A DNA stretch of 64,000 bases, taken from positions 63,130 through 127,129 of the forward strand of contig CAUDCW010000004.1 in the NCBI GenBank assembly GCA_958448165.1, read 5' to 3'. Position 1 is the stretch's first letter. Every line of letters starts with the position of its first letter. A program made the translations under genes and the position numbers. The stretch comes from an uncultured Oscillospiraceae bacterium (GTDB lineage: Bacteria > Bacillota > Clostridia > Oscillospirales > Acutalibacteraceae). The notes under the pieces are model-generated. The model saw only the letters and a list, made by a program, of their open reading frames with translations. It did no database searches and had not been told where the DNA came from. Of the stretch, positions 952 to 60,500 are shown one piece after another.

Positions 952-1130
952 TTAAGGAAACACTGATTAAATCGTTTGTGCATATTGCGCTGTCAGGTTT
1001 TTCGTTAGATTGGACAAATAAACCGCAGTAATGCTGCCGCATTACGAGAATTTTTTGGTCAGGCTGACGGAAAATATGGGGGGAAGATGTGCAAACAGCT
1101 TTCATCGTGATTTATTCAGTGTTTCCTTAA
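952..1130. repeat. ~180-bp element with terminal inverted repeats (TTAAGGAAACACTGATTAAATC ... GATTTATTCAGTGTTTCCTTAA), copy 1 of 3
   Basis: Near-identical copies at 48722-48901 (same orientation) and 57383-57561 (inverted). Perfect ~22-nt terminal inverted repeat and a long imperfect internal palindrome. Lies in the divergent intergenic region, 124 bp upstream of the ABC ATPase start. Confidence 0.8.
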
Positions 1131-1253
1131 TAATAACACGGCAGAAAAAATTTTGCAATTCAGTTTATCTGTCACTTTAAAGTCACTTTGAGCCTTTATA
1201 ATGACTTTGTAGTTGAAAGATCTTTTACAAATAATAATTTCGGAGGTAATGAT

Positions 1254-7942: not shown

Positions 7943-8609
7943 AAATTTTCTTCCATTCTTTCATCGAGTTAAGATACACGTCGGCTGTCTTTTCAAGCTC
8001 GCTTATGTGTTCGGCTGAATATTCATCATATACAGCCGCAACCCTGAAGCCGCCCGATTTTGCGGATTTTACCGCAAAGATTGAATCCTCAAAAACCCAT
8101 GTGTTTTCTTTCTTTGTTCCGAGATGCTCAAGCGCAAGCTCATAAATTCTTGGCGTGTCTTTGTTTATATCCAGCTCTGTTCCCGAAAAATAAGCGGAAA
8201 AATACCTGTCAAGTCCGCATCTTTGCGCCGCCGCCCTGACAAGAAATGTGACGTTGGTTGTTGCAACACACATTTTTATTCCTTGCCTGTGCATTTCCTC
8301 CAAGGCTTCAATGACGCCGCATTTCGGCTGAACCTTGTCCGTGTATTCAACCTGAGCCATCCGGTTGATATCATTTATTATTTCGGGAACGGTTCGGTCT
8401 ATTCCGTAGCTTGTTTTTAAATACTCTGCCGCCTGTCTGATGTTCATGGCGGCGACCTCTTGGTTCAATGTTTTGCTTGGTTCCTTGGACAAGCTGATAA
8501 GATAGTTGCTTGCGGCACAATACCAGACATACATTGAGTCGAAAAGCGTGCCGTCAAAGTCGAATATTATTCCGTCAACACTCATACCGTTCTCCGCATT
8601 ATTCATCAA
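7935..8609 (-). CDS. HAD-superfamily hydrolase (beta-phosphoglucomutase-like subfamily)
   Basis: Motif [13 protein letters not shown]. Embedded between thiD and thiC with overlapping start/stop codons. Confidence 0.7.
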
Positions 8610-9906
8610 AGATAGATACGATTTCGCCGTCGAGTATGCGGTTCATATTCTTAACGGCGCAGAAGTTACCGCACATACTGCAGGTGTCCTCTTTTTCGGG
8701 CTTAGCCTCGGCTCTGTATCGCCTTGCTTTCTCGGGGTCTATTGATATGTCAAACATCTTCTCCCAGTCAAGCTTCTTTCTCGCCTTGTCCATTTCAAGA
8801 TCCCAGTCGATAGCGCCCTTGATGCCTTTTGCAATGTCGGCTGAATGTGCGGCGATTCTTGTTGCGATGATGCCTTCCTTAACGTCGTTTACGTCAGGCA
8901 GTCTTAAATGCTCGGCAGGCGTTACATAGCACAGGAAAGAAGCTCCGTTTGATGCGGCTATAGCGCCGCCGATTGCAGATGTGATGTGGTCGTAGCCCGG
9001 CGCAATATCGGTGACTATCGGACCGAGAACATAAAACGGTGCGCCGTGGCACAGTGTTTTCTGAATTTCCATATTTGCCGCAATCTGGTTTATCGGCATA
9101 TGACCCGGACCCTCAATCATAACCTGAACGTCCTTTTCCCATGCTCTTTTTGTCAGCTCGCCGAGGGTGATAAGCTCCTCAATCTGTGAAGCGTCTGTTG
9201 CGTCCATAAGGCATCCCGGACGGCAGGCGTCGCCAAGACTTATTGTAACATCATATTCACGGCAGATGTCGAGGATTTCGTCATAGTACTGATAAAACGG
9301 GTTCTCTTCGCCTGTCATCTCCATCCATGCGAAGATGATAGAGCCGCCTCTTGACACGATATTCATAAGCCTTTTGTTCTTCTTGAACTTCTTTGCGGTT
9401 TCCTTGTTGATGCCGCAGTGTATTGTCATAAAGTCAACGCCGTCCTCAGCGTGCATACGAACAATGTCGATCCACTGTCTTGCGGTTATCGCCTTGAGAG
9501 CCTTGTGATAATATACAACAGCGTCATAAATCGGCACTGTTCCTATCATTGCAGGACACTCTGCGGTGAGCTTTCTTCTGAATTTCTGTGTGTCGCCGTA
9601 TGAGCTTAAGTCCATAATAGCCTCTGCACCCATATCAACCGCACTTTTAACCTTTTCAAGCTCCATGTCAAGGTCGGTCCAGTCACGGGATGTACCGAGG
9701 TTTACGTTGATTTTTGTTTTAAGCATCGAGCCAAGACCGTTCGGGTCGATACACTTGTGGTTTTTGTTGCAGGGGATAATAACCTTACCCTCGGACATAA
9801 GCTTCAAAAGCTCGTCACGTTCCATATGCTCCTTGTCTGCGACAGCTTGCATTTCTTTTGTGAAGATGCCTTTTCTTGCGGCATCCATCTGAGTTGTGTA
9901 TTGCAT
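8599..9906 (-). CDS. thiC: Phosphomethylpyrimidine synthase
   Basis: AGGAGG RBS then [20 protein letters not shown]...; C-terminal CSMCGNFCA radical-SAM-like cluster motif of ThiC. The track's longer ORF (to 9990) is an upstream read-through. Confidence 0.9.
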
Positions 9907-9924
9907 AAAAGACCTCCTGAAAAA

Positions 9925-10050
9925 ATAAGGTATGCATACCTGATATGCATACCTAAAGTTTACATTAATTCCTACGTTGGCATTATCCAAATCAGGTTTA
10001 TGGGTCGAAGCCGAACTTCCTCTCAGCCAAAAAAGCTCCCCGTATTCTAT
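9925..10050 (-). ncRNA. TPP (THI-box) riboswitch in the thiC leader
   Basis: Reverse strand reads ...GGGGAGC...GGCTGAGAGG...AACCTGATTTGGATAATGCCAACGTAGGAA..., matching the conserved CUGAGA and ACCUGAUnUGGAUAAUGCCAnCGUAGGAA cores. Followed by AGGTATGCATACCT hairpins (expression platform) before the thiC RBS. Confidence 0.85.
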
Positions 10051-10087
10051 TTATTCTTACTCTATCATTTTAGTATGAATTTGTCAA

Positions 10088-47588: not shown

Positions 47589-48659
47589 ATGAAAAATTAT
47601 AAGCTTGTTTTACTCAAGGGCGACGGAATAGGCCCTGAAATCGTTGACGAGGCAGTTAAGGTCCTCAATAAAGCGGCTGAAAAGTTCAACTTCACGGTTG
47701 AGTATGAGGAGGCTCTGCTCGGTGGCTGTGCAATTGATGCAACAGGTGTTCCGCTTCCGGAGGAAACCGTTACAAAGTGTAAGGCGGCCGATTCTGTAAT
47801 TCTCGGTGCTGTAGGCGGTCCTAAGTGGGATACTCTTCCGGGTAACCTTCGTCCGGAAGCTGGACTTCTCGGCATCAGAGGTGCTCTCGGACTTTTTGCA
47901 AACCTGCGTCCGGCGGTTATCTTTGAGCCGCTCAAGAACGCATCACCGCTCAAGGACGAAATCATCGGCAAGGCTCTTGACATTATGGTGGTAAGGGAGC
48001 TTACAGGCGGCATCTACTTCGGCGAAAGAGGCAGAAAAGACGTTGACGGCAAACCTGCCGCATATGATACCGAGATGTACACTGTTCCCGAGATTGAGAG
48101 AATCGCAAGAGTAGCCTTTGATATGGCTATGAACAGAAACAAGAAGCTCACAAGCGTTGACAAGGCGAATGTTCTCGAGTCGTCAAGACTCTGGAGAGAA
48201 ACCGTTATCAGGGTTTCAAAGGATTATCCCGAGGTTGAGCTTAACCACCTTTATGTTGATAACTGCGCAATGCAGCTTGTCCGCAACCCGGGTCAGTTTG
48301 ACGTTATCGTTACATCTAACATCTTCGGCGACATTCTCTCTGATGAGGCTTCAATGATCAGCGGCTCTATCGGTATGCTCGCATCAGCAAGCCTTAACGA
48401 GAACAAGGCAGGTCTTTATGAGCCTATTCACGGTTCTGCTCCCGACATTGCAGGTCTTGGCATTGCAAATCCGCTTGCAACAATTCTTTCCGTTGCAATG
48501 ATGCTCAAGCATTCTCTTGACCAGCCGGAGGCAGCAGACGCAATTGAAAACGCAGTTGCAAAGGCTCTTGAAACCTACAGAACACCCGATATCTATACAG
48601 AGGGAACAAAGAAGGTAAATTGTAAGGAAATGGGCGACGTTGTTTGCTCGCTCCTTTAA
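47589..48659 (+). CDS. leuB: 3-isopropylmalate dehydrogenase
   Basis: [20 protein letters not shown]-terminus; [20 protein letters not shown] isocitrate/isopropylmalate dehydrogenase signature. Confidence 0.9.
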
Positions 48660-48721
48660 TCCGATAAACAAACATATTTTGCGGCACCGAAGCAACAGCT
48701 GTATTCGGCGCCGTTTCTTTT

Positions 48722-48901
48722 TTAAGGAAACACTGATTAAATCGTTTGTGCATATTGCGTCGTCAGATTTTTCGTTAGGTTGGACAAATAAAACGCAGTA
48801 ATGCTGACGCATTGCGAGGATTTTTTGGTCAGGCTGACGGAAAATATGCAAGCAAGATGTGTAAACAGCTTTTAAGCGTGATTAATTCAGTGTTTCCTTA
48901 A
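48722..48901. repeat. TIR-bounded ~180-bp element, copy 2 of 3
   Basis: ~90% identical to 952-1130 in the same orientation; lies between the leuB stop and the fhs promoter, 98 bp upstream of the fhs start. Confidence 0.8.
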
Positions 48902-48998
48902 ATATCGTAAATTCACACTTGTTAATATCTGCGCCGTATGATATAATTTTTTAATGTAGTAATCCCATATTTTTTATTATATATAGGAGGAACGGAAA

Positions 48999-53006: not shown

Positions 53007-53771
53007 ATGGAAACAAAGGATATTATAGTAGAGTTGAGAACTAAAAACGGGCTTTCACAAGAAGCTCTTGCAGAAAAAATATTCGTAACAAGACAGGCGG
53101 TTTCTCGTTGGGAAACCGGAGAAACGGTGCCAAATACTGAAACACTAAAATTGTTATCAAAACTGTTTGATGTATCTATCAATACGCTTCTCGGTTCTCC
53201 AAGACAGCTTATCTGCCAATGCTGCGGTATGCCTTTGGAAGATTCTAATATCAGCAAGGAAACCGATGGTTTCTTTAATGAAGAATATTGCAAATGGTGC
53301 TATGCAGACGGAGAATATATGTATCATAATATTGATGACCTGATTGATGTTTGTGTAAAGCATATGGCAAATGAGGAACATCCGGAGGAAGAAGTTCGTT
53401 CTTATTTACAGGAAACTCTACCGAAATTAGATTATTGGAAGAGATACAAAGAGCTTGGCGGTGATGGAGCTTTTGAAGAATTCAAAAAACTCTTGATTAC
53501 GGAAATCAATGAATTGAACATTGAAGGAATGCCAAAGCTTCAAAAGCTTAATGCCTTAGTTGGCGGATATGTCAATCTTGAATACAGACTTCCAAACGGA
53601 AAAAGTGTGAAGTTTTTAGATGACGGAGTAACCTATTTAGGGAATCAGTTGGAATGCGAATTCGGAGAAAACAGATGTTTTGGCATTGTCTGCAATATGG
53701 ATTTTATTCTTATTGCAACCTATGAAGAAAATGGCGAAAATCCAGAGTTGGTTATTTATAAAAAGAGATAG
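53007..53771 (+). CDS. XRE-family HTH regulator fused to a Cys-rich (zinc-ribbon-like) domain and C-terminal domain of unknown function
   Basis: LRTKNGLSQEALAEKIFVTRQAVSRWETGE HTH_3 motif; CQCCGMPLED...CKWCYADGEY. Confidence 0.7.
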   Translation: METKDIIVELRTKNGLSQEALAEKIFVTRQAVSRWETGETVPNTETLKLLSKLFDVSINTLLGSPRQLICQCCGMPLEDSNISKETDGFFNEEYCKWCYADGEYMYHNIDDLIDVCVKHMANEEHPEEEVRSYLQETLPKLDYWKRYKELGGDGAFEEFKKLLITEINELNIEGMPKLQKLNALVGGYVNLEYRLPNGKSVKFLDDGVTYLGNQLECEFGENRCFGIVCNMDFILIATYEENGENPELVIYKKR

Positions 53772-54053
53772 TCAAATTCCAATTTTTCGGTCGGTTGCAT
53801 ACACTTCTTGGGTTGCATTTCAATGCAACTTTGCAACCGCTTGCAACCCGTACCAAAATATGCGTTATAATTCAAATCGAGGGTAGTTTTTACTGCCCTC
53901 GTTTTTTTTGCGTTTGCCCGGAATGGGCAGTAACTTGGTGGTGGGAGTCCACTACAGGCTTGGCAGTAGGAACTGTTAGCTGAGGGCAAGTGCGTCCATC
54001 GTGAGGTGGAGTATGAAATAAGCCTAAAGCAAACTCTCGGTCTGACGAACAGA

Positions 54054-54375
54054 AATCACATATAAGGCATATGCAGAGCGGACGAGCTTGGCTCATTTGG
54101 GTGATATTGTATTGTTCCGTTATGTTGTTCGACAATACTTTTTACAATAGCTAATCCTAAGCCGGCACCGCCGACTTTTTTAGTCATTTGCTTGTTTTCA
54201 CGGTAGAAAGGTTAAAAAATATGCGCAGAGCGTCAGGGGAGATGCCAATTCCTGTATCGGATACGATAATCAAAAGTTGGTTGTTTGCCTTTTTAGTTTT
54301 GATATGTACTTTGCCATTTTCTGTATTATATTTAATTGCATTTTGAATAAGGTTTGATACAGCGTGTTTAAGCAT
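54054..54375 (-). pseudogene. Histidine kinase C-terminal remnant (HATPase domain only, frameshifted)
   Basis: 54375-54184 encodes N/G1 boxes (NLIQNAIKYN...IIVSDTGIGISPDALRIFF) and ends in TGA; an overlapping ATG in another frame continues as MTKKVGGAGLGLAIVKSIVEQHNGTI (G2 box). No HisKA or sensor domain upstream (stop immediately 5'). Confidence 0.6.
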
Positions 54376-54489: not shown

Positions 54490-55095
54490 GTGGCGAATTA
54501 TACAGAAGAACAATGGAATGTCAAAAAAAATAAGCTTATGGAAACGTGCTTTAACGGTTTTGCCGATTTAGGACTTCACGGCACCGGTATTCGGGTGTTG
54601 GCAAAGCATTGCGGATATAACACATCTATGATCTATACATACTTTGAAAGCCTGGATGACCTTATCATACAATCTACGGAGTACTGTATGAGTAAGGTAG
54701 AAGATGATTTTATGGCGAAAGCTCCCACAGATGTTAAGGACTTATGGCGGTTTATAGACGAGATACCCTACTGGACTGCAAAAAAACACGGAAAGAAATA
54801 CCGCCTTATGTATCAGGTCTATACACACCCGAAATACAGAGAATACGGTCAGAAATTCTTTGCGGGTGTTGATAAGCGTTACACCGAATACGCAAAAAGC
54901 TTAGAGGGTAAGCTGGGAATTCCTTATCAAAAGCTGACGCCGCTGATATTCATTCTAATCAGAGCCTGCGTGCATTACGCATTATTTGAGGACGAATTTT
55001 ACCTGAAATCACAGATTACTGTGCTGAAAGAATCTATTGAACTCTTTGTTATGAAATATAACCCGAAAGCAAGGTCGGGTGCTAATACAGAATAA
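54490..55095 (+). CDS. TetR/AcrR-family transcriptional regulator
   Basis: GTGIRVLAKHCGYNTSMIYTYFES TetR_N HTH; ~200 aa all-helical. Confidence 0.75.
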   Translation: MANYTEEQWNVKKNKLMETCFNGFADLGLHGTGIRVLAKHCGYNTSMIYTYFESLDDLIIQSTEYCMSKVEDDFMAKAPTDVKDLWRFIDEIPYWTAKKHGKKYRLMYQVYTHPKYREYGQKFFAGVDKRYTEYAKSLEGKLGIPYQKLTPLIFILIRACVHYALFEDEFYLKSQITVLKESIELFVMKYNPKARSGANTE

Positions 55096-57382: not shown

Positions 57383-57561
57383 CTAAGGAAACACTGAATA
57401 AATCACGCTGAAAGCTGTTTGCACATCTTGCTTGCATATTTTCCGTCAGCCTGACCAAAAAATCCTCGTAATGCGACAGCATTACTGCGGTTTATTTGTC
57501 CAACCTGACGAAAAAATTGACGGCGCAATATGCACAAACGATTTAATCAGTGTTTCCTTAA
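57383..57561. repeat. TIR-bounded ~180-bp element, copy 3 of 3 (inverted relative to copies 1 and 2)
   Basis: Reverse complement matches 952-1130 and 48722-48901 at ~90%; ends 25 bp upstream of the NRPS start codon. Confidence 0.8.
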
Positions 57562-57585: not shown

Positions 57586-60500
57586 ATGAATATACCCAAA
57601 AAGGCTTCTCTTTCAAAGACAGAATACGGAATTTATTTTGATTATCTGAACAATCCGAGCAGTATTGCTTACAATATTCCGTTGTTTTTAAAGCTTGACA
57701 AGGATATCGACATTACAAGACTTAAGCAGGCGGTTGAAGCGGTTATTGAAAATCATCCGTACATTAAATCACGCTTAACTGCCGATATCGACGGAGCTGT
57801 TTACAAGCTTTCGTCCGATGAACCGGCAGTTGTGGAAGTTAAAGAGCTGCACGACGCCGATTTTGACAAAAAAAGCCTTGTTTATCCTTTCGAGTTACTA
57901 AGCGAAAGACTTTATCGGTGCTGTATTATTAGTCTTGATTCATATGTGATGCTTTTCTGCGATTTTCACCATATTATCTTTGACGGCTCGTCAGCCAAAA
58001 TCTTTTTGAATGATGTTTCAAGAGCCTACAATGGTTTGCCGCTTGAACCGGAGCATTTTACAGGAAACGACGTTTCGTATGAAGAAGAGGAAAGATTAAA
58101 GACAGACGAGTTTAATTCTGCTAAGGAATATTATCGTTCGCATTTCAGCGGCATTGAGCTTGATTCTGTTATGATGAATGACAAAAACGACGGAAAACCA
58201 CTTGCAAAAGCAATTGAATACGAGTTTACATCCTTTAATGCTGACGATATAAGAAAATTCTGCCGCAAAAACGGCATAAAAACAAGCACATTCTTCTGCG
58301 GCGTTTACGGCTTTTTGCTTGCAAAATTTTCGGGAGCTGAAGAAAGCCTTTTTGCGACTATTCATAACGGACGAAACGAAAAGCTCGCAAATTCCTGCGG
58401 AATGTTTGTTAAGACATTGCCTGTTTACTGTAATTTCAGTAAGAATGAAAGTATTGTGCAATTTCTGAAGAGTCTTGATTTACAGCTTCAAAACAACAGA
58501 AAAAATGACTTGTATTCATATGCAGATATATGTTCTGATTTACAGATAAATCCACCGACCATTTTTGCCTATCAGGGTGATATATTCAGAAACATTAACT
58601 TCTGCGGAAAGGAAATATTTGCTGACAGCATAGATGTTCCCGATGCAAAGGCAAATATTTCGGCAGAGCTTTCAAGAATTAACGGAAGATTTTCAATGAG
58701 ATTTGAATACAGAGCCGATTTGTATGAGGAAAAGTCGGCAGAAAGCTTCCTGAAATCATTTGAAAAAGCGGTAACTGAATTTATCGGGAAAGAAAAAATA
58801 AATGACATTGACATAACCGACAGCGAACAGCTTGCACTTCTTGACAGCTTTAACAATACTGAAAGAGATTACGAAAAGACCGATATTGTAACGCTGTTCA
58901 GACGTCAGGCAGAACAGAACCCTGACAACACAGCAGTTGTATATCTTGACAAAAGCTATACATACAAAGAGGTTGACGAGATTTCGGAAAAAATAGGTGC
59001 ATATATTTCCTCTCTCGGAATCGGAAGAGAAGACGTTGTTTCCGTACTTATTCCGAGGTGTGAATATATGGTGCTTGCGTCATTGGGTGTTTTGAAATCG
59101 GGTGCGGCATATCAGCCGCTTGACCCGTCATATCCGCAGGAGCGCCTTGAATTTATGATGCAGGATGCATCGGCAAAGCTTCTGATAGCCGACAAAGACT
59201 TGCTTGAGCGTGTGCCGAATTACAAGGGTAAGGTGCTTATTCTTGAGGATATTCCTGCACTTCCGAGCTGTGAAAAAATCAGCACAAATCCCAATTCCGA
59301 GGATTTGTTTATTATGCTCTACACCTCAGGCTCAACAGGCACACCAAAGGGCTGTATGCTTGAACATAGAAATATAGTTTCCTTTTGCAACTGGTACAGA
59401 AATTATTACAATCTTACTTCTCAGTCAAGGGTAGCGGCTTATGCAAGCTACGGCTTTGACGCAAATATGATGGATATGTACCCTGCGCTGACAACAGGGG
59501 CAACAATACATATCATTGACGAGTCAATCCGTCTTGACCTGCTGGCGATTGACAAATACTTTAATGAAAATAAAATAACCCACAGCTTTATGACAACGCA
59601 GGTCGGCAGACAGTTTGCTGTTGAAATTGACAACAGCACCATAACCGAATTGTCTGTTGGCGGCGAAAAGCTTGTGCCGCTTGCTCCTCCGAAAAATCAT
59701 AAGATGATAAATCTTTACGGTCCTACCGAAAGCACCGTTTGTATAACAGCATTTGAGCTTGACAGGCTTTATGACAGAGTGCCGATAGGAAAGGCACTTG
59801 ACAATACAAAGCTTTATGTTGTGGATAAGCAAGGCAGGAGATTGCCGCCTTGTGTTCCCGGTGAATTGTGGGTTGCAGGTCACGGAGTGTCAAGAGGTTA
59901 CTTAAACCGCCCCGAACAGAATGAAAAAGCCTTTATCAGAAATCCGTTTACCGATGAAAAAGGCTATGAAAGAGTTTACAGAACAGGCGATATAGTGAGA
60001 TATTTGCCAGACGGCAATATCGACTTTGTCGGCAGAAACGACGGTCAGGTTAAAATCAGAGGCTTCAGAATCGAGCTTCCCGAGGTTGAGCGCATTATCC
60101 GTGAATTTGAGGGAATAAAAGACGCAACTGTTGCGGCATTTGATGAAGCAGGCGGAGGAAAATTTATTGCGGCTTACGTTGTATCTGACAGCAAGGTAGA
60201 TATTCAGAAGCTCAATGAATTTATACTTGCTAACAAACCTCCGTATATGGTTCCTGCAGTAACAATGCAGATTGACAGAATTCCTCTTAATCAGAATCAG
60301 AAGGTCAACAAGCGTGCATTGCCCAAGCCTGAAAAGAAAGCGCACAACGGCGAACCGTCATCAAAGCCTATGACCCTGCTTGAAAAGAAAATTCACTCAA
60401 TCGTTGCTGAAATTCTCGGTAACGATAATTTCAGTGTTACTGAAAATCTTTTGTTTGCAGGACTCAATTCCTTGTCGGTAATTAAGCTTGCGGTTGAACT

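What the first reader, a model, noticed from the sequence alone, without database searches (positions are those of the whole stretch)
952..1130. Three copies of a ~180-bp TIR-bounded intergenic element (MITE-like or structured RNA family)
The segments 952-1130, 48722-48901 and 57383-57561 are ~90% identical; the third is inverted. Each begins TTAAGGAAACACTGAWTAAATC and ends with its reverse complement (GATTTAWTCAGTGTTTCCTTAA). The interior is an imperfect long palindrome. It includes GTCAGGCTGAC and GCAGTAATGC..GCATTAC arms, so the whole unit can fold into one long hairpin. All three copies sit in intergenic DNA immediately upstream of a + strand gene start (ABC ATPase, fhs, NRPS). The short ORFs the track finds inside them (MHIFRQPDQKIL...) are conserved only because the DNA is. 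Size, TIRs, TTAA-containing ends and intergenic location fit a miniature inverted-repeat transposable element. A family of cis-regulatory RNAs or an sRNA gene is an alternative.
Basis: seen in the sequence. Interest (0 to 1): 0.65.

Follow-up and report, generated by a model that had tools for sequence, protein, structure and literature searches.

The report
IS5-type miniature transposon with conserved hairpin
The three repeats are copies of a small non-coding "hitch-hiker" transposon moved by an IS5-family transposase; that is ordinary, but its internal hairpin is unusually well conserved, on one strand only, and also occurs with quite different ends.

Summary
There are three 171-172 bp copies, about 91% identical, one of them inverted, and no others in the window. 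The element proper is GGAAACACTGATTAAATC...GATTTATTCAGTGTTTCC. The outer TTAA is a 4-bp target-site duplication of the YTAR type. Complete 1.21-kb insertion sequences with the same 18-bp left end, YTAR duplications and an IS5-family DDE transposase (NF033581, E 7e-90) occur in gut metagenomes and phage contigs. Relatives of the element sit at unrelated intergenic sites in Ruminococcus, other Oscillospirales, Dialister, Veillonellaceae and Paludibacteraceae. Orientation relative to flanking genes is random. Copy 1 is missing in some strains of the same species.

The unexpected part is the interior:
- It is a long hairpin with covarying stems and conserved unpaired bases.
- It has a 7.6-fold excess of G·U over A·C pairs on one strand, the strand reading left end to right end.
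- About 100 nt of this interior also occurs in elements with at least six other end types.

So the interior is constrained as a single strand, probably RNA. Its function is unknown. Verdict: a real, previously undescribed IS5-type MITE family with an unexplained conserved core.

The parts
956..1126 (+). MITE copy 1 (element proper, 171 bp). The structurally favoured strand is +.
   Evidence: 179.6 bits on +, 56.9 on -. RNA MFE -63.2 (+) against -46.3 (-).
952..955 (.). Left target-site duplication of copy 1 (TTAA)
   Evidence: Family-wide 4-bp direct duplications.
1127..1130 (.). Right target-site duplication of copy 1 (TTAA)
956..973 (+). Left inverted repeat of copy 1, GGAAACACTGATTAAATC. 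Identical to the left end (IRL) of the full-length IS.
1109..1126 (-). Right inverted repeat of copy 1. Read inward it is GGAAACACTGAATAAATC. The AAT in place of ATT matches the right end (IRR) of related IS copies.
992..1008 (+). U/T-rich 5' arm (GTCAGGTTTTTCGTTAG). It pairs with 1064-1078 and includes conserved U·G wobbles.
1024..1049 (+). Conserved apical module CGCAG-TAATGC-TGCC-GCATTA-CGAGA. Family consensus is CGCAGGAATAC-NNNN-GTATTTCAAGG. The stem covaries and the flanking unpaired bases are conserved.
1064..1078 (+). A-rich 3' arm (CTGACGGAAAATATG), the partner of 992-1008.
48726..48897 (+). MITE copy 2 (172 bp, favoured strand +). It lies between the terminator of the isocitrate/isopropylmalate dehydrogenase-family gene (Pfam Iso_dh) and the fhs promoter. 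The flanks 48722-48725 and 48898-48901 are both TTAA.
   Evidence: 189.9 bits.
57387..57557 (-). MITE copy 3 (171 bp, favoured strand -). It lies between a MatE gene and the NRPS start at 57586. The flanks are CTAA (57383-57386) and TTAA (57558-57561).
   Evidence: (190.8 bits).

Best explanation
The three segments are copies of a non-autonomous miniature inverted-repeat transposable element derived from, and mobilised in trans by, an IS5-family (IS5-group) DDE transposase.

Shown:
- The transposase's element is a 1.21-kb IS with the same 18-bp left end. It is not present in this window.
- Insertions sit at YTAR (mostly TTAA) sites in AT-rich intergenic DNA, and the 4 bp are duplicated.
- Copies are intergenic and randomly oriented. 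At locus 1 the copy can be lost again.

Inferred:
- The transposase binds the 18-bp ends GGAAACACTGA(T/A)TAAATC.
- The loss at locus 1 occurred by slippage across the base of the hairpin.

Beyond the ends, the interior is not filler. It is a ~100-nt hairpin made of a U-tract arm, an A-tract arm and an apical stem-loop flanked by conserved unpaired GCA and AA. It is maintained by compensatory changes, and only on the strand that reads IRL to IRR. It is also shared by elements with other end types.

My reading, which is inference, is that this core acts as a single-stranded nucleic acid. RNA made when a copy is transcribed in that direction is the most likely form. The selection would act on the element lineage rather than on the neighbouring host genes. 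What the core does is unknown.
For: Ends and partner IS:
- L117:133-1345 is a complete IS flanked by TTAA/TTAA. Its IRL is identical to the MITE end, and its 331-aa transposase hits NF033581 (IS5 family, E 7e-90) and Pfam DDE_Tnp_1 plus DUF772.
- 66 further complete IS copies from metagenomes have ends GGAAAC(A/G)CTGATTAAAT / GGAAAC(A/G)CTGA(A/T)(C/T)AAA. Their duplications are CTAA x12, TTAG x9, CTAG x5 and TTAA x3.
- Relatives in Subdoligranulum (70% aa identity) and Ralstonia (IS1021-like, 51%) have related ends, with ATAA and CTAG duplications.
- IS5 is known to duplicate YTAR (PMC5009759).

Family behaviour:
- More than 114 loci were found in representative genomes.
- Only the element, not its flanks, is shared with the window.
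- 58 of 96 elements have identical 4-nt flanks, 22 of them non-palindromic.
- All are intergenic, and orientation relative to genes is 24:25.
- Copy 1 is absent from 4 of 7 spanning contigs that encode an identical ABC ATPase protein next to the site.

Structure:
- 97.3% of cells are paired and 18 of 48 pairs show double changes on a sequence-only alignment. Slid controls give about 40% paired.
- On 55 sequences from all subfamilies, 95.9% are paired and 38 of 48 pairs show double changes.
- There are 183 G·U cells against 24 A·C cells. Each subfamily consensus has 2-5 G·U and 0-1 A·C.
- The favoured strand is 10-40 kcal/mol more stable in every subfamily.

Core with other ends.
Against: - No IS5-type transposase gene lies in the 64-kb window. 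The rest of the source genome could not be examined, so current mobility in this organism is unproven.
- The 'empty' allele at copy 1 keeps 7 nt of the right end (TGTTTCC). It is better read as a deletion across a TGT microhomology than as a pristine target, so it shows loss, not insertion.
- For the RNA reading, no conserved promoter or terminator was found in the element (and inspection). Insertion orientation is random with respect to genes.
- 117-nt variants lacking the apex are still multicopy, so the apex is not needed for mobility.
- DNA energy parameters also favour the same strand (-38.9 against -32.0), so ssDNA cannot be excluded.
- The covariation counts come from related sequences, and partly from a model-fitted alignment.
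Confidence: 0.85

Rival explanations
1. It is an ordinary MITE whose interior is neutral filler. On this view the hairpin reflects a palindromic origin, and the strand asymmetry and conserved apex are inherited from one ancestor and have no function.
For: - Apex-less 117-nt derivatives still multiply.
- Orientation relative to genes is random.
- No promoter or terminator was found.
- All subfamilies could share ancestry, so the G·U positions are partly inherited.
Against: - Arms differ heavily between subfamilies yet stay 96-97% paired, and 18-38 pairs show double changes.
- Unpaired apex bases are more conserved than the stems, the opposite of neutral decay.
- Intermediates are G·U on one strand 7.6 times more often than A·C. 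Strand-symmetric dsDNA mutation does not predict this.
- The interior is better conserved than the ends across at least seven end types.
Confidence: 0.3
2. The conserved hairpin functions as single-stranded DNA rather than RNA. Examples would be a priming or RNA-polymerase entry site like a rolling-circle plasmid single-strand origin, or a strand-specific transposition intermediate.
For: - It has the same size class (~160 nt) and strand specificity as ssoA (PMC5703833).
- The favoured strand is also favoured with DNA parameters.
- The Dialister-type loop TAGCGAG equals the pT181 palA loop heptamer.
- A GACGGAAAAT motif loosely resembles RSB, TTATGCCGAGAAAATTT.
Against: - The covariance model does not hit pT181 palA.
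- The RSB-like motif lies in the opposite arm, and is paired rather than in an internal loop as in palA.
- Chromosomal copies are randomly oriented, so half would be on the wrong strand.
- As far as I know, IS5-family DDE transposases are not known to use ssDNA.
Confidence: 0.1
3. It is a non-mobile conserved cis-regulatory RNA or sRNA gene family that merely looks like a repeat.
For: - The fold is stable.
- All three window copies are upstream of + strand genes.
Against: - There are 4-bp direct target duplications.
- Flanking genes are unrelated and orientation is random.
- Copy 1 is absent in near-identical strains.
- The ends are identical to those of an IS.
- There is no Rfam match.
Confidence: 0.03

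Closest known systems
IS5-group insertion sequences of the IS5 family (E. coli IS5, Ralstonia IS1021-like, and the 1.21-kb gut IS found here)
   Same: They have the same terminal sequence class (GGAAAC[A/G]CTGA...), the same 4-bp YTAR target duplication, and the same IRL/IRR difference (ATT against AAT) (PMC5009759).
   Different: The window element has no transposase. Beyond nt 18 it shares nothing with the IS, and the apical module is absent from 80 IS loci.
bcr1 of the Bacillus cereus group (a MITE-like repeat with an RNA-level structure)
   Same: It is a ~155-bp intergenic mobile repeat with a direct target duplication. It is transcribed, and compensatory changes maintain its structure at the RNA level (PMC3184786).
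   Different: The duplication is 5 bp and the fold is a double hairpin. As far as I know, no cognate IS is known, and no shared core across different end types has been reported.
Correia/NEMIS (Neisseria), ERIC (enterobacteria) and RUP (pneumococcus)
   Same: They are 100-170-bp TIR-bounded intergenic hairpin repeats. RUP is linked to an IS by TIR similarity. Some affect mRNA processing in an orientation-dependent way (PMC3049150).
   Different: There is no sequence similarity. The target is TA (Correia and RUP, from my own knowledge) rather than YTAR. The partner families differ (IS630 for RUP).
ssoA/palA single-strand origins of rolling-circle plasmids
   Same: They are ~160-nt, orientation-specific, imperfect hairpins with conserved loop bases (PMC5703833).
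   Different: No homology was detected. The motif arrangement differs. ssoA has no TIRs or target duplications and is not dispersed in chromosomes.

Membership tests
Bacterial MITE (non-autonomous TIR element) | Terminal inverted repeats bounding a short unit | tested here: met
   The ends are 18 bp, matching 17 of 18 between the two ends (T/A at position 12) in copies 1 and 3; in copy 2 the second mismatch lies at position 14 instead.
Bacterial MITE (non-autonomous TIR element) | No coding capacity | tested here: met
   Stop-free stretches equal those of dinucleotide shuffles. Differences between copies are mostly non-synonymous. The window has no transposase hit.
Bacterial MITE (non-autonomous TIR element) | Direct target-site duplication | tested here: met
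   Copies 1 and 2 have TTAA/TTAA; copy 3 has CTAA/TTAA. Across the family, 58 of 96 have identical flanks, and 22 of these are non-palindromic against 3.2 expected by shuffling.
Bacterial MITE (non-autonomous TIR element) | Multiple copies at non-orthologous sites; insertion polymorphism | tested here: met
   There are 3 copies in 64 kb and more than 114 loci in other genomes, with only the element shared. Copy 1 is absent in L137 and L140-142, although that allele looks like a secondary deletion.
Bacterial MITE (non-autonomous TIR element) | Ends match those of an autonomous IS able to act in trans | tested here: met
   The IRL of L117 and L149-L160 is identical over 18 nt. Actual mobilisation was not tested.
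IS5 family, IS5 group (as the parent of the MITE) | DDE_Tnp_1 transposase of the IS5 type | tested here: met
   The partner IS hits NF033581 (301 bits, E 7e-90), PF01609 and PF05598. The gene is not in the window itself.
IS5 family, IS5 group (as the parent of the MITE) | 4-bp YTAR target duplication | tested here: met
   MITEs: TTAA 36, TTAG 7, CTAA 6. IS copies: CTAA 12, TTAG 9, CTAG 5, TTAA 3. Literature: PMC5009759.
   Duplications are 4 bp and include CAAG and CTGT, which contain no TA. The partner transposase is IS5-type.
   TIRs and duplications are present, and the partner is a DDE enzyme.
Any curated RNA family (Rfam 15) | Covariance-model match at the gathering threshold | tested here: not met
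   There is no match at gathering. At E<=10 only generic long-hairpin miRNA models match, at 22 bits against 140 needed.
cis-regulatory leader or riboswitch | Fixed orientation upstream of a recurrent gene class | tested here: not met
   Orientation relative to upstream and downstream genes is 24:25 and 24:25, and the neighbours are unrelated.
ssoA-type single-strand origin | RSB motif in the 5' arm and CS-6 (TAGCGT) in the terminal loop; homology to palA | tested here: not met
   Model R1 does not hit pT181 palA. The RSB-like motif is in the 3' arm. A CS-6-like loop occurs only in the Dialister subfamily.
Functional structured RNA (generic) | Covarying stems, conserved loops, strand-specific G·U | tested here: met
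   Transcription itself could not be tested with these tools.

The most novel reading that the evidence does not exclude
The real conserved unit is not the transposon ends but a ~100-nt strand-specific hairpin. It comprises a U-tract/A-tract stem with fixed U·G wobbles and an apical stem-loop flanked by invariant GCA and AA. On this reading it is a mobile non-coding RNA (or ssDNA) module that has been carried, or re-captured, by at least seven different IS5-family end types (both 4-bp YTAR and 3-bp TAA/TCA targets). It occurs across Oscillospirales, Negativicutes, Bacteroidota and phage contigs, and it gives an as yet unknown advantage to the element or its host.
Probability: 0.35. Interest if true: 0.7.

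Novelty: new variant of a known kind. Interest (0 to 1): 0.45.

Why it matters
Practically, this repeat breaks short-read assemblies of a common gut Oscillospirales species. Several contigs end inside it. It also marks a possible rearrangement breakpoint (L129). Annotating it removes spurious ORFs and explains these contig ends.

Biologically, it links a widespread gut IS5 clade to its MITEs. More interestingly, the passenger sequence of a bacterial MITE is here under stronger and strand-specific constraint than the transposase-binding ends, and it is shared by elements with different ends. If the core is a functional RNA, MITEs would be acting as vehicles that spread a structured RNA across phyla. 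That is testable with strand-specific RNA-seq and transposition assays.

Tried and rejected
- Rfam at gathering and at E<=10: no family matched.
- Coding potential of the internal ORFs: rejected.
- IS630/Tc1 and IS200/605 parentage: rejected on duplication length and partner transposase.
- Internal promoter or intrinsic terminator: the consensus scan found only the apical hairpin followed by a T-run. That T-run is missing in the Dialister and T2 types, so it is not a conserved terminator.
- Orientation bias relative to genes: none.
- ssoA homology: fetched pT181, located RSB and palA, folded it and searched with model R1. No match; it is an analogy only.
- BLAST of the element against PLSDB plasmids: no match.
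- Literature searches for the end sequence and for IS5-derived MITEs in Firmicutes: nothing relevant.
- My recollection that Croucher et al. 2011 reported G-U evidence was not borne out by the text and is not used.
- Empty-site searches for copies 2 and 3: in every contig that spans the copy-2 site the copy is present, and the remaining contigs at both loci end in or next to the MITE.
- MAFFT structural modes were unavailable.
- RNAalifold on the all-subfamily sequence alignment recovered only the basal and apical stems, because indels misalign the arms.

Full report
**1. Observation**

The three segments are real. Positions 952-1130 and 48722-48901 on the + strand, and 57383-57561 inverted, align end to end with 91% mean column identity. 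Similarity stops exactly at the outer tetranucleotides. The terminal 15-mer occurs six times in the window, twice per copy, against 0.17 expected. A covariance model built later from relatives finds these three copies at 180-191 bits and nothing else credible in 64 kb. A 12.7-bit match at 58253-58331 inside the NRPS gene has E 0.22. The unit folds into one long hairpin, with RNA MFE -68 kcal/mol and z = -7.1. Rfam has no family for it.

**2. What the ends are**

The hosts include:
- Ruminococcus, other Oscillospiraceae, Acutalibacteraceae, Dialister, Veillonellaceae, Lachnospiraceae and Paludibacteraceae;
- Treponema and Desulfovibrionaceae;
- a few environmental Proteobacteria.

The window shares only the element with these loci, never the flanks.

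Elements fall into size classes of about 27-31, 43-48, 100-122, 159-163 and 171-176 bp. The 4 nt outside GGAAAC...GTTTCC are identical on both sides in 58 of 96 elements. The counts are TTAA 36, TTAG 7 and CTAA 6, plus TAAA, TTTA, ATAA, ATAG, CAAG and CTGT. That gives 22 non-palindromic identical pairs against 3.2 expected by shuffling. The outer TTAA is therefore a 4-bp direct target-site duplication of the YTAR type, not part of the inverted repeat.

**3. The autonomous partner**

In a phage contig, L117:133-1345 is a complete 1213-bp insertion sequence:
- Its ends read TTAA|GGAAACGCTGAACAAAAGC ... GATTTAATCAGTGTTTCC|TTAA.
- The end upstream of the transposase gene (IRL) is identical to the MITE end over 18 nt.
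- The 331-aa protein hits NCBIfam NF033581 (IS5 family transposase, 301 bits, E 7e-90) and Pfam DDE_Tnp_1 plus DUF772.

A metagenome scan with this protein returned 389 relatives. Of the best 80 loci, 66 hold complete 1.21-1.22-kb IS copies:
- The IRL is GGAAAC(A/G)CTGATTAAAT and the IRR is GGAAAC(A/G)CTGA(A/T)(C/T)AAA.
- The duplications are CTAA x12, TTAG x9, CTAG x5 and TTAA x3.

More distant relatives also fit. A Subdoligranulum variabile copy (70% aa identity) has ends GGAATCTCTGATTAAATC and GGAACCTCTGAATAAATA with an ATAA duplication. A Ralstonia IS1021-like element (51%) has GGAAACGCTGAT ends with a CTAG duplication. YTAR duplication is the known signature of IS5 (PMC5009759). The ATT/AAT difference between the two MITE ends mirrors the IRL/IRR difference of the IS. 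This gives the MITE a defined polarity.

No IS5-type gene lies in the window, and the rest of the genome was not available.

**4. Behaviour at the three loci**

All family members examined are intergenic. Their orientation relative to the nearest upstream and downstream genes is 24:25 and 24:25. The four gene configurations occur 12, 11, 10 and 9 times.

- **Copy 1** sits in the divergent trkH / ABC-ATPase region. Among contigs encoding an identical ABC ATPase protein, L136, L138 and L139 carry it. L137 and L140-142 are 175 bp shorter. The short allele reads GAAAAGATGTTTCCCTAATAATAAC, so it keeps TGTTTCC, the last 7 nt of the right end. One deletion between TGT microhomologies at the foot of the hairpin, plus one substitution, explains it. 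A pristine target would need four substitutions. I therefore read it as loss rather than as an empty site. It still shows the copy is dispensable and unstable.
- **Copy 2** is present in every contig carrying the same Iso_dh protein that spans the site. In L129 the DNA to the right of the element is different, which indicates recombination or misassembly at the repeat.
- **Contig ends:** several short-read contigs stop inside or next to the element.
- **Copy 3** lies 24 nt upstream of the NRPS start codon at 57586.

**5. The interior is not filler**

*Strand asymmetry.* In every long subfamily the same strand folds 10-40 kcal/mol better than its complement:

| Subfamily | Favoured strand | Complement |
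|---|---|---|
| Window type | -63 | -46 |
| NK3B98 type | -83 | -52 |
| Veillonellaceae RUG179 type | -93 | -49 |
| Dialister type | about -69 | about -58 |

The favoured strand is always the one reading IRL to IRR. It is also the one that scores higher with the covariance model.

*Covariation.* On a sequence-only MAFFT alignment of 24 elements, 97.3% of cells form pairs, 18 of 48 pairs show changes on both sides, and slid controls give about 40%. On 55 elements from all subfamilies the figures are 95.9% paired and 38 of 48 pairs with double changes.

*Wobble bias.* G·U cells outnumber A·C cells 183 to 24. Each subfamily consensus has 2-5 G·U and 0-1 A·C. Strand-symmetric mutation of a DNA palindrome predicts parity. 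Selection that sees only one strand predicts this bias.

*Apical module.* Its consensus is CGCAG-GAATAC-NNNN-GTATTTC-AAGG. The stem covaries (AAUAC/GUAUU, AAUGC/GCAUU, AUAGC/GCUAU, CAUAGC/GCUAUG). The unpaired GCA and AA flanking the stem are conserved.

*Caveats:*
- The sequences are related.
- One alignment was fitted to the model.
- DNA parameters favour the same strand, at -38.9 against -32.0.
- No conserved promoter or terminator was found.
- Apex-less 117-nt derivatives are still multicopy, so the apex is not needed for transposition.

**6. The same core with other ends**

Scanning phage contigs for the apex, and re-reading model hits that lacked the canonical end, revealed the same interior bounded by quite different inverted repeats. 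The shared features are the U-tract arm with its U·G wobbles, the A-tract arm, an almost identical apex, and the same favoured strand.

| End type | Terminal sequence | Flanks / duplication | Loci |
|---|---|---|---|
| T1 | GGAAACACTGATTAAATC | YTAR (TTAA) | window copies and relatives |
| T2 | GGTGTATCTGAAAACTC | YTAR | at least five loci |
| T3 | GAGCTTGTGTTCATCGG | TAA / TCA | L232, L234 |
| T4 | GGCAAYACCGCAYA | TTAA | L050:598-769, L069:4703-4873 |
| T5 | GGTATCTCTAAAAACC | not determined | L050:5897-6056 |
| T6 | GAACCTGTCCACATAGG | TAA / TAA | L012:6884-7045 |
| T7 | CTAAACTTCGTTTGAACGAAGG | not determined | L054:3156-3311 |

On one contig (L069) a T1 copy and a T4 copy lie 180 bp apart. 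By inspection of the alignment, their interiors are roughly 90% identical, while the terminal ~35 nt are much more divergent. The apex is absent from the 80 full-length IS loci. So the passenger is better conserved than the transposase-binding ends and moves between end types. This is the reverse of what is usual for MITEs.

**7. Mechanism**

*Shown:* it is a non-coding TIR element with IS5-group ends and YTAR duplications. It is dispersed, randomly oriented, intergenic and dispensable.

*Inferred, with high confidence:* it is mobilised in trans by the IS5-group transposase that recognises the 18-bp ends.

*Inferred, with moderate confidence:* the core functions as a single-stranded hairpin on the IRL-to-IRR strand. 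RNA is the likeliest form, because G·U is well tolerated in RNA and MITEs with RNA-level compensatory structure are known (bcr1, PMC3184786). Selection would act on the element lineage, because orientation relative to host genes is random. What the core does is unknown.

An ssDNA role was considered by analogy with ssoA/palA single-strand origins, which are ~160 nt and orientation-specific (PMC5703833). However, pT181 palA is not hit by the model, and the motif arrangement differs. That remains an analogy only.

**8. Verdict**

This is a real IS5-derived MITE family that, as far as the held literature and Rfam show, has not been described. The classification itself is ordinary. The strand-specific conserved core shared across end types is the part worth following up.

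Noticed in passing
L022:3467-3493, L045:559-585, L075:7719-7745, L106:2771-2797, L071:2397-2423, L103:4013-4039, L073:718-744: Bare 27-nt palindromes made only of the two ends (GGAAACACTGATTTAATCAGTGTTTCC) with YTAR flanks occur in Lachnospiraceae, Clostridium and Desulfovibrionaceae. They could be minimal elements or excision/deletion remnants. Treponema genomes carry 43-48-nt versions.
   Followed up: partly
L129:3571-3830 compared with window 48660-48920: One metagenome contig has copy 2 after the same Iso_dh gene, but unrelated DNA (a CN_hydrolase gene on the opposite strand) starts 3 nt beyond the right duplication. This is either recombination between copies or an assembly chimera at the repeat.
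   Followed up: partly
L023:3228-3344, L026:961-1078, L026:1562-1680, L026:5159-5275, L046:4367-4482: These are 116-119-nt derivatives that have lost the apical ~55 nt, apparently between the two ATTTTTTG repeats. They are multicopy in one Ruminococcus MAG, so the apex is not required for spread.
   Followed up: partly
window 53995-54219 (+): Rfam group-II-D1D4-3 intron match (52 bits, above gathering) in the gap between an HTH/Zn-ribbon gene (53007-53771) and a TetR gene (54490-55095). No reverse-transcriptase ORF is nearby, so it is an ORF-less intron or a fragment.
   Followed up: no
window 9951-10052 (-): TPP riboswitch (60 bits), overlapping the listed start of the - strand ORF 8599-9990 (whose real start is probably downstream).
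   Followed up: no
window 48640-48721: Copy 2 is inserted directly after the T-run of a terminator-like hairpin (CGGCACCGAAGC...GGCGCCGTTTCTTTT) that follows the Iso_dh gene. Its TTAA target abuts the terminator tail.
   Followed up: no
window 1130-1158 (-): A promoter-like site (TTGCAA-17-TGnTATTAT) abuts the right duplication of copy 1 and points through the element towards trkH. If it is real, copy 1 is transcribed on its unfavoured strand as a 5' leader.
   Followed up: no
L124, L125, L143-L145, L148, L131-L135: Many short-read contigs of this species end within or next to the element, so it is a recurrent cause of assembly breaks.
   Followed up: partly
L105:6625-6783, L113:3995-4153, L096:6391-6541: A 159-nt subfamily close to the Dialister type occurs in a MAG labelled Paludibacteraceae (Bacteroidota). 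This is either cross-phylum transfer or a binning error.
   Followed up: no
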